A DNA stretch of 25,385 nucleotides from a virus (lineage: Duplodnaviria; Heunggongvirae; Uroviricota; Caudoviricetes), in IMG/VR virus record IMGVR_UViG_2657245081_000005; one strand, given 5' to 3'. Position 1 is the first letter of the stretch, and each line of letters starts with the position of its first letter. Shown here piece by piece: positions 8,404-8,833 of this stretch. The notes below the pieces were generated by a model. The model was not told the origin of the DNA, searched no databases, and was given only the letters and a program-made list of their open reading frames with translations. The position numbers and the translations under genes were made by a program.

Positions 8404-8571
8404 NNNNNNNNNNACTGCCTGTCGATACTGGTTTACGTTTGTTGAGTCGCCATGTTGCACTCCGGATCAGAGCACTACCTGCGGCACCACCCGTCCGGTA
8501 GCCAGGACTTGAAATGGGTTCGATCCGGCGCAACTTCCCAACAGTCAGGATTATAAATCTCATTATCTTAA

Positions 8572-8600
8572 TTGCAACACTGTCCAGAGGTGGTTATAAT
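8572..8600 (+). promoter_or_regulatory. Near-consensus sigma70 promoter (TTGCAA-N17-TATAAT)
   Basis: -35 TTGCAA at 8572-8577, 17-bp spacer, -10 TATAAT at 8595-8600. Confidence 0.45.
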
Positions 8601-8690
8601 TCGTTCGTTGAGATGCCATGTTGCACTATCAGTAACTTAACATCAAAGTAGTAAATAAAAGAACCTGCCTCACCAGCAGGTTTTTTTATT
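8601..8690 (+). ncRNA. Candidate small RNA of about 80 nt between the promoter at 8572-8600 and an intrinsic terminator (8662-8690)
   Basis: Promoter followed about 60 nt later by AACCTGC-CTCACCA-GCAGGTT hairpin plus T7 run; no convincing ORF; identity unknown. Confidence 0.3.
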
Positions 8691-8833
8691 TTCTGCGATC
8701 TACTTTCCAGATATTTTTTTGCCAATAGCCCACCATAAATATTCACATTCCGGTCAAATGGTACGTTGAATATAAAATCGATGAATTTATAAATAAAAAT
8801 GAGTTATATGATGAATTAATAAANNNNNNNNNN

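What the first reader, a model, noticed from the sequence alone, without database searches (positions are those of the whole stretch)
8414..8700. Promoter-to-terminator unit of about 80 nt with a degenerate upstream duplicate: candidate unannotated small RNA
A near-consensus sigma70 promoter (TTGCAA, 17-bp spacer, TATAAT at 8572-8600) is followed about 60 nt later by a clean intrinsic terminator (AACCTGC CTCACCA GCAGGTT TTTTTT, 8662-8690). The intervening sequence has no plausible ORF (the longest begins MLHYQ then stop). About 160 bp upstream is a diverged copy of the same 5' segment (8428-8461, GTTGAGTCGCCATGTTGCACT versus GTTGAGATGCCATGTTGCACT at 8607-8627) whose -10 element is mutated. The flanks are AT-rich, and the block is bordered by lambdoid tail genes in neighbouring blocks, so it may be prophage-borne. 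I do not recognise it as any core E. coli sRNA I can recall.
Basis: seen in the sequence. Interest (0 to 1): 0.5.

Follow-up and report, generated by a model that had tools for sequence, protein, structure and literature searches.

The report
Known Orz antitoxin small RNA
The promoter-to-terminator unit is real, but it is a known antitoxin small RNA of the E. coli zor-orz toxin-antitoxin locus, and the upstream "degenerate copy" is the site on the neighbouring toxin mRNA that this RNA binds, so the finding is ordinary.

Summary
Window 8572-8600 is a TTGCAA-17-TATAAT promoter, followed by an 81-nt non-coding unit (8607-8687) that ends in a strong hairpin and a U7 tail. A 26-nt direct repeat lies 166 bp upstream.

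The unit is not new. It is a full-length match to Rfam RF02083, the OrzO-P RNA antitoxin family (91.7 bits, cut-off 60). The 410-nt block is 100% identical to the yehK-yehL intergenic region of E. coli MB53. This is the chromosomal zor-orz type I toxin-antitoxin locus, not a prophage. The window is a mosaic of 50 blocks, so the lambdoid "neighbours" are an artefact.

The upstream repeat is not a decayed sRNA gene. It lies at +82..+102 of the divergent minus-strand zor toxin mRNA leader, which is the Orz binding site. A direct repeat on one DNA strand makes two divergent transcripts complementary. Both promoters share one palindromic -35 hexamer.

The seed (GUUGAGAUGCC...) is neither OrzO nor OrzP. 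It has co-varied with its target (6+14 pairs, one A·A mismatch) and occurs in 856 of 5,426 complete E. coli genomes. It sits next to the ZorQ (A20S) toxin in 3 of 3 sampled genomes, so it is most likely the published zorQ/orzQ type.

Verdict: already known, low interest.

The parts
8607..8687 (+). Orz antitoxin sRNA gene, probably the orzQ type. It is 81 nt from the inferred +1 (G, 7 nt after the -10) to the end of the U7 run.
   Evidence: Rfam RF02083 OrzO-P hit over 8614-8687: 91.7 bits against a cut-off of 60, E 5e-14, covering model positions 1-76 of 76. Fold -20.8 kcal/mol, z -3.45. Placing +1 here puts the published V1 triplets at +9..+11 in the paralogues (GAA in OrzO, ACG in OrzP).
8607..8627 (+). 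5' seed of the sRNA, GUUGAGAUGCCAUGUUGCACU. It pairs with the zor leader. V1 (+9..+11) is GCC.
   Evidence: Pairing with the adjacent target is 6 pairs, an A·A mismatch at +7, then 14 pairs that include a U·G at +8. Duplex energy is -34.4 kcal/mol, against -16.0 with the zorO site and -22.6 with the zorP site.
8620..8636 (+). Small internal stem-loop of the sRNA (5 bp, 7-nt loop).
   Evidence: Present in the Rfam consensus structure and in the minimum-free-energy and centroid folds.
8657..8687 (+). Intrinsic terminator: a 12-bp hairpin with a 7-nt loop. The U7 run forms the 3' arm and tail.
   Evidence: inverted repeat I1. It is invariant in all five aligned modules. The pattern scan also scores it on the minus strand.
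8595..8600 (+). orz -10 hexamer, TATAAT.
   Evidence: The published conservation table gives the orz -10 as TATAAT in 99.8% of loci (PMC11264685).
8572..8577 (.). Palindromic TTGCAA hexamer that serves as the -35 of both divergent promoters: orz on the plus strand (17-bp spacer) and zor on the minus strand (16-bp spacer).
   Evidence: The scan finds both promoters on this one hexamer. It is invariant in the alignment. The literature lists TTGCAA as the -35 for both genes.
8550..8555 (-). zor toxin promoter -10 hexamer, TATAAT on the minus strand.
   Evidence: Invariant in the alignment.
8414..8542 (-). First 129 nt of the zor toxin mRNA 5' leader, with +1 inferred at 8542. The ribosome binding site and the 29-codon toxin ORF lie beyond the N-run and are not in the window.
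   Evidence: The same TSS position applied to Sakai zorO gives the RBS at +164, the AUG at +175 and the target at +85..+102. These are the published values (PMC5397157). In MB53 the toxin ORF MDTLTQKLTVLIAVLELLVALLRLIDLLK lies 40-129 nt left of the block.
8441..8461 (-). Orz binding site in the zor leader, at mRNA +82..+102.
   Evidence: The position matches the OrzO-protected 3' end of the EAP region, +73..+102. The target-to-seed distance is 166 bp in 14 of the 16 target-orz pairs parsed across genomes; the other two are 167 and 178.
8691..8823 (.). AT-rich spacer between tandem zor-orz modules. In MB53 the next module's zor terminator and ORF follow directly after it.
   Evidence: L001 3275-3410 is near-identical to the spacer after the orphan orzO at L001 2672-2810. 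No ORF is conserved here.

Best explanation
The unit is the antitoxin gene of one module of the chromosomal zor-orz type I toxin-antitoxin locus of E. coli, which lies in the yehK-yehL intergenic region. Two back-to-back sigma-70 promoters share one palindromic -35 hexamer. Rightward transcription gives an Orz sRNA of about 81 nt. Leftward transcription gives the zor mRNA, which has a structured leader of about 170 nt followed by a 29-codon membrane-toxin ORF. That ORF has been cut out of this window. The single-stranded 5' end of Orz (+1..+21) pairs with +82..+102 of the zor leader. By analogy with the studied zorO-orzO pair, this blocks the upstream 'exposed after processing' standby region needed for translation and triggers RNase III-dependent decay, which keeps the toxin off. 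The seed and its target differ from those of OrzO and OrzP at the same positions, so this is a third specificity class that should act only on its own toxin mRNA. It is most likely the published zorQ/orzQ type. Shown here: family membership, genomic location, promoters, terminator, complementarity and its specificity in silico, and prevalence. Inferred from homologues: expression, RNase III dependence and toxin repression.
For: Rfam RF02083 gives a full-length hit at 91.7 bits against a cut-off of 60. The block is 100% identical to the MB53 chromosome between yehK and yehL, and the locus has the same position in 9 of 9 genomes inspected. A 29-aa ZorO-type ORF lies just left of the block in MB53. 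Two divergent promoters sit on one TTGCAA hexamer. With the inferred TSS, the published RBS, AUG and target coordinates of zorO are reproduced. Seed and target pair as 6(1)14, which meets the published rule of at least 17 pairs with one internal mismatch. Cognate duplexes score -31 to -34 kcal/mol and non-cognate ones -16 to -27.5. In the module alignment, which has 92% mean column identity, variation is concentrated in the seed, the target and the promoter spacer. The exact 51-nt promoter-seed-stem sequence is in 783 genomes and near-identical in 73 more, 856 of 5,426 in all. The ZorQ (A20S) toxin is adjacent to this seed in 3 of 3 sampled genomes. The literature establishes the mechanism for OrzO: PMC2887945, PMC3919570, PMC5397157 and PMC11264685.
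Against: No expression or repression data exist for this particular seed variant; only OrzO and OrzP have been tested. The pair has an A·A mismatch at +7 and a U·G at +8, so repression could be weaker than for the perfectly matched OrzO. A 5(2)11 mutant failed to repress in PMC3919570, although here only one position is truly unpaired and 20 pairs remain. In silico, removing the first 28 nt opens the target in zorO (probability unpaired 0.23 to 0.56) but not in this type (0.29 to 0.26). Identity with the published 'orzQ' is inferred from linkage to the A20S toxin. The toxin ORF itself is not in the window.
Confidence: 0.93

Rival explanations
1. This is a novel, possibly prophage-borne sRNA with a decayed upstream duplicate gene.
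For: The unit carries no RefSeq annotation in the genomes listed. The neighbouring blocks in the window encode lambdoid tail proteins.
Against: The unit is a full-length match to a curated Rfam family. The window is a 50-block mosaic. The block is chromosomal, between yehK and yehL, in 9 of 9 genomes, and 7,068 of 7,072 matches are on chromosomes. The upstream copy has no promoter or terminator of its own and lies inside the transcribed zor leader, exactly at the published antitoxin-binding position.
Confidence: 0.01
2. The sRNA is expressed, but in this variant it mainly or additionally acts on targets other than zor, or it is a relic that no longer represses its mismatched neighbour.
For: About 30% of E. 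coli genomes keep an orz gene with no toxin, and OrzPmg is expressed in MG1655 (PMC11264685). MB53 itself carries an orphan orzO. The cognate pair has a mismatch at +7.
Against: The seed and target have co-varied away from the O and P classes at the same positions. The pair meets the experimentally derived pairing rule. A second seed variant in 238 genomes also keeps 19 pairs to the same target. The toxin ORF and its RBS are intact next to the module in the 7 genomes with this seed where it could be read.
Confidence: 0.05
3. The unit is a leader, attenuator or 3' UTR of a flanking protein gene rather than an independent RNA.
For: Weak sub-threshold Rfam hits to the Thr and Trp leaders overlap the terminator.
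Against: Those hits score 25-27 bits against cut-offs of 41-55. The unit has its own near-consensus promoter. Downstream lies a spacer and then a convergent zor terminator, not a co-oriented ORF. Homologues run as discrete transcripts of about 85 nt (PMC2887945).
Confidence: 0.01

Closest known systems
OrzO and OrzP antitoxin sRNAs of the zorO-orzO / zorP-orzP type I toxin-antitoxin loci (E. coli O157:H7 EDL933/Sakai; Rfam RF02083)
   Same: Same genomic site (yehK-yehL). Same promoters (TTGCAA / TATAAT). Same transcript length of about 80 nt, internal stem-loop and identical terminator. Same divergent arrangement, with the seed 166 bp from a target site at about +82..+102 of the toxin leader. 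Module alignment has 92% mean column identity.
   Different: Seed positions +5..+12 are AGAUGCCA, against GUACGAAA in OrzO and GAACACGA in OrzP. The V1 triplet is GCC, not GAA or ACG. Predicted pairing to the zorO and zorP sites falls below the published functional threshold. Like OrzP and unlike OrzO, the cognate pair has a mismatch at +7.
zorQ/orzQ, the 'third locus type' named in PMC11264685 (mSystems 2024)
   Same: It is a third zor-orz class distinct from O and P. The A20S toxin variant (ZorQ) that defines the class lies directly next to this exact seed and target in 3 of 3 sampled genomes.
   Different: Identity could not be checked base by base because the published query sequence was not in the held text. 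In MB53, the 100% match, the adjacent toxin has the ZorO-type protein sequence (A20) rather than A20S. A second seed, GUUGGGGCGCC, found in 238 genomes, shares the same target and may be lumped into the same published class.
IstR-1/tisB and OhsC/shoB divergent type I toxin-antitoxin pairs
   Same: The sRNA is encoded divergently from the toxin rather than overlapping it. It has a short 5'-end seed of 18-21 nt that pairs far upstream of a sequestered RBS in a long, processed leader (PMC3919570, PMC5397157).
   Different: The toxins are unrelated. The Rfam ohsC model gives only a sub-threshold hit (33.6 bits against a cut-off of 50). The zor-orz locus is tandemly repeated with diversified seeds, whereas tisB and shoB are single copy.

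Membership tests
Rfam RF02083 OrzO-P RNA antitoxin family | The covariance model score reaches the curated gathering threshold over the full model. | tested here: met
   91.7 bits against 60, E 5e-14, model positions 1-76 of 76, not truncated. The Sakai OrzO and OrzP controls score 88.8 and 99.9 bits.
zor-orz type I toxin-antitoxin module | The sRNA gene is divergent from a 29-codon hydrophobic zor toxin ORF in the yehK-yehL intergenic region. | tested here: met
   The toxin ORF is not in the window, because the block ends 40 nt short of its start codon. It is present immediately to the left in the 100%-identical MB53 locus (MDTLTQKLTVLIAVLELLVALLRLIDLLK). It is also present in 6 other genomes with this seed. 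The flanking genes are yehK and yehL in 9 of 9 genomes.
zor-orz type I toxin-antitoxin module | The 5' end of Orz is complementary to the zor 5' leader at the 3' end of the EAP region. The functional rule is at least 15 continuous pairs, or at least 17 pairs with one internal mismatch. | tested here: met
   Pairing is 6(1)14, or 20 pairs including one U·G, at mRNA +82..+102. The rule comes from PMC3919570 and PMC11264685.
zor-orz type I toxin-antitoxin module | Conserved promoter elements: -35 TTGCAA and -10 TATAAT for both genes. | tested here: met
   One search finds both promoters.
zor-orz type I toxin-antitoxin module | The sRNA is expressed as a transcript of about 85 nt and rescues cells from Zor toxicity. 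Repression needs RNase III and does not need Hfq. | not testable with these tools
   This has been shown only for OrzO, and expression only for OrzP (PMC2887945, PMC3919570). No data exist for this seed variant.
OrzO (sensu stricto) | V1 triplet GAA at +9..+11 and 18 continuous pairs to the zorO leader. | tested here: not met
   V1 is GCC. Only 16 interrupted pairs form with the zorO site, and the duplex energy is -16.0 kcal/mol.
OrzP (sensu stricto) | V1 triplet ACG at +9..+11 and 6(1)13 pairing to the zorP leader. | tested here: not met
   V1 is GCC. Pairing to the zorP site is 4/1/3/10 with three interruptions, and the duplex energy is -22.6 kcal/mol against -34.0 for OrzP itself.
zorQ/orzQ third locus type (PMC11264685) | A locus class distinct from O and P by BLASTn. 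Its common toxin variant is ZorQ (A20S). | tested here: inconclusive
   The A20S codon is found in 300 genomes. In 3 of 3 sampled, the A20S toxin is adjacent to this exact target and seed. The published orzQ sequence (Table S21) was unavailable for direct comparison.

The most novel reading that the evidence does not exclude
The zor-orz array may work as a small addressing code. Tandem modules diversify seed and target together to avoid cross-talk. The unpaired position at +7, seen in the P class, this class and the SF-468-type seed but not in O, may be a selected feature that tunes repression rather than drift. Two different seeds, GAGAUGCC in 856 genomes and GGGGCGCC in 238, serve one and the same toxin target site. 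That is either a seed replacement caught in progress or a sign of extra trans targets for one of the two. None of this has been tested for this class.
Probability: 0.15. Interest if true: 0.3.

Novelty: already known. Interest (0 to 1): 0.08.

Why it matters
It matters little for discovery. The family has been described since 2010, has an Rfam model, and its third locus type was named in 2024. The practical value is in annotation. In every row the searches listed, RefSeq has no annotated feature at this position, so the RNA keeps looking 'new' to naive scans. The case also gives a useful rule: a short direct repeat about 160 bp upstream of a small promoter-terminator unit can mark a divergent type I toxin-antitoxin pair rather than a decayed gene copy. 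A minor point worth a specialist's look is that one toxin target site is served by two alternative antitoxin seeds across E. coli lineages.

Tried and rejected
1. Prophage origin is rejected. The window is a 50-block mosaic, and the block maps between yehK and yehL on chromosomes.

2. A small protein encoded in the unit is rejected. The MLHYQ* ORF is not conserved in length or sequence among the paralogues. The 34-aa and 45-aa plus-strand ORFs across the leader and promoters lose their start codons in the O module.

3. I tried to confirm identity with the published orzQ sequence. The supplement is truncated before Table S21, and neither 'GTTGAGATGCC' nor 'GAGATGCCATG' is found in the held text. 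I replaced this with a linkage test to the A20S toxin codon.

4. I looked for the toxin ORF elsewhere in the window and found none.

5. I scanned one genome per species (GTDB) for the conserved Orz 3' half. Only 4 loci matched, all Escherichia, carrying O or P seeds. No new seed classes appeared and this type is not present outside E. coli.

6. In-silico opening of the target after removal of the first 28 nt is reproduced for zorO but not for this type. A fold prediction of this kind is too weak to interpret further.

7. The relaxed Rfam scan of the block gave only sub-threshold extras (ohsC, leaders, STnc370), all driven by the terminator.

Full report
**Observation**

The finding lies in a 410-nt block (8414-8823) bounded by N10 runs. 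The whole window is a concatenation of 50 such blocks.
- The promoter is TTGCAA (8572-8577), a 17-bp spacer, then TATAAT (8595-8600).
- A hairpin follows at AACCTGC / GCAGGTT (8662-8682), with a T7 run to 8687.
- The 81-nt RNA from 8607 to 8687 folds at -20.8 kcal/mol, z = -3.45, and 0 of 200 shuffles fold as well.
- A 26-nt direct repeat, 88% identical, lies at 8436-8461 and 8602-8627, 166 bp apart. Shuffles give 0.00 such matches.

**Identity**

A gathering-threshold Rfam scan of the window places 8614-8687 (+) in RF02083, the OrzO-P RNA antitoxin family. The hit scores 91.7 bits against a cut-off of 60, with E 5e-14, and covers the full model.

The block is 100% identical to the chromosome of E. 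coli MB53. Related sequence is present in 5,232 of 5,426 complete E. coli genomes, and 7,068 of the 7,072 matching places are on chromosomes.

In MB53 the block lies in the yehK-yehL intergenic region. The same holds in O157:H7 Sakai and in seven other genomes I fetched. This is the position where the zor-orz type I toxin-antitoxin locus was discovered (PMC2887945).

The lambdoid tail genes next to the block in the window are therefore mosaic neighbours, not genomic ones. In all rows listed by the searches, no RefSeq feature is annotated under the match. The sRNA is unannotated there, but it is not unknown.

**What the upstream repeat is**

The pattern scan finds two promoters in the block, and both use the same palindromic TTGCAA hexamer as their -35.
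- The plus-strand promoter drives orz.
- The minus-strand promoter has a 16-bp spacer and TATAAT at 8555-8550.

I placed the minus-strand start at the G seven nt downstream of that -10, at 8542. I then applied the same position to Sakai zorO. This gives the ribosome binding site at +164, the AUG at +175 and the OrzO site at +85..+102. Those are the published values: a 174-nt leader, the RBS at +164..+169, and OrzO binding at the 3' end of the +73..+102 EAP region (PMC5397157).

In the window, the repeat copy at 8441-8461 corresponds to +82..+102 of that leftward transcript. The two transcripts are divergent, so a direct repeat on the plus strand makes the sRNA complementary to the mRNA. The 'degenerate duplicate' is therefore the antitoxin's binding site in the toxin leader, not a dead gene copy.

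The toxin ORF itself (29 codons, MDTLTQKLTVLIAVLELLVALLRLIDLLK) begins 40 nt left of the block edge in MB53. It is absent from the window.

**Which Orz it is**

The published discriminator is the V1 triplet at +9..+11, which is GAA in OrzO and ACG in OrzP (PMC3919570). The window copy has GCC, and it differs from both across +5..+12.

| Class | Target (plus strand) | sRNA seed | Pairing |
|---|---|---|---|
| O | GTTGGTACGAAACGTTGC | GTTGGTACGAAATGTTGC | 18 continuous pairs, one U·G |
| P | GTTGGACCACGATGTTGCAC | GTTGGAACACGATGTTGCAC | 6(1)13 |
| Window | GTTGAGTCGCCATGTTGCACT | GTTGAGATGCCATGTTGCACT | 6(1)14, A·A at +7, U·G at +8 |

The adjacent target has changed at the same positions as the seed. 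The window pair meets the experimentally derived rule of at least 17 pairs with one internal mismatch. Its pairings to the zorO and zorP sites do not.

Duplex energies agree. Cognate pairs score -31 to -34 kcal/mol and non-cognate pairs -16 to -27.5.

I aligned five modules, with 92% mean column identity. Variation is concentrated in the target, the seed, the orz promoter spacer and the internal stem-loop. The promoter hexamers and the terminator are invariant.

**Prevalence and name**

- A 51-nt query across the -10, seed and stem-loop finds this variant in 856 of 5,426 genomes, and 783 of them are identical.
- Its target type is in 1,099 genomes.
- The difference is explained by a fourth seed, GTTGGGGCGCCATGTTGCAT. 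It occurs in 238 genomes, including SF-468 and the type strain ATCC 11775, and faces the same target with 19 pairs.

[quoted passage not shown] A query centred on the A20S codon finds 300 genomes. In 3 of 3 sampled, the A20S toxin sits directly beside this exact target and seed.

I therefore assign the window copy to the zorQ/orzQ type. This is an inference, because the published query sequence was not in the held supplement.

Module order varies between genomes:
- Sakai is O-P.
- M11957 and 120899 are Q-P.
- NT1F10 is Q-O-P.
- MB53 is an orphan orzO followed by Q-P.

**Mechanism**

Shown here: family membership, location, the two promoters, the terminator, seed-target complementarity with in-silico specificity, and a sequestered RBS in the predicted leader fold (probability unpaired 0.07).

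Inferred from the studied zorO-orzO pair: Orz is made constitutively as an RNA of about 85 nt. Its 5' end binds the leader far upstream of the RBS. This blocks the standby region that is exposed after removal of the first 28 nt, and RNase III then cleaves the duplex. Hfq is not needed (PMC2887945, PMC3919570, PMC5397157).

Caveats: no experiment exists for this seed class. The +7 mismatch could weaken repression. The predicted opening of the target after processing is seen for zorO but not for this type.

**Verdict**

It is wrong on novelty, on the prophage origin and on the meaning of the repeat. This is a member of a known, curated family, and interest is low. The only mildly new details are descriptive: one toxin target site is served by two alternative seeds, and the +7 mismatch recurs across seed classes.

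Noticed in passing
window 1-25385: The window is a mosaic of 50 sequence blocks joined by N10 runs. Adjacency between blocks, such as the lambdoid tail genes at 7725-8403 and 8834-9299 flanking the orz block, says nothing about genomic context.
   Followed up: yes
window 4659-4899 (-): Rfam gathering-level hits to C4 antisense RNA (4659-4746), isrK (4809-4886) and the c4-a1b1 target element (4847-4899). Together these look like a P1/P7-type immunity (immI-like) antisense control region of a prophage.
   Followed up: no
window 231-348 (+): Full-length IS1222/IS3-family ribosomal frameshift element (Rfam RF00383, 156.6 bits). This marks an IS3-family transposase orfA/orfB junction.
   Followed up: no
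window 6634-6709 (+), 6756-6806 (+), 12405-12587 (-): tRNA-Val(TAC) is followed by a second, identical-start Val copy that is cut off by an N-run. tRNA-Gln(TTG) and tRNA-Leu(TAG) lie in tandem on the minus strand.
   Followed up: partly
window 23584-23661: naRNA4 (CssrE) Rfam hit on both strands, which is a REP/BIME-type palindromic element.
   Followed up: no
L004 1772-1795 (E. coli SF-468); 238 genomes including ATCC 11775: A fourth Orz seed, GTTGGGGCGCCATGTTGCAT, faces the same zor target site as the window type: 19 pairs, with a G·U at +5 and a G·A mismatch at +7. The counts add up: 856 + 238 = 1,094, close to the 1,099 genomes with that target.
   Followed up: partly
L001 2591-2671 (E. 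coli MB53): MB53 carries an orphan orzO with an intact promoter and seed but no zorO ORF or target. It lies left of the window-type module, giving 2.5 copies in the order O-Q-P. NT1F10 has three full modules in the order Q-O-P. This suggests recombination among the tandem repeats.
   Followed up: partly
L001 2985-3000 versus L002 23395-23416 and L007: The MB53 copy of this zor leader lacks one unit of a 6-nt CCTTAC tandem repeat that lies between the Orz site and the RBS. Its leader is 168 nt rather than 174 nt. The window block starts immediately after this repeat.
   Followed up: partly
window 8607-8691 (+): Sub-threshold Rfam hit to ohsC_RNA, the antitoxin of shoB (33.6 bits against a cut-off of 50, E 0.002). 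It could reflect distant kinship between the two divergent type I antitoxins, or only the shared terminator shape.
   Followed up: no
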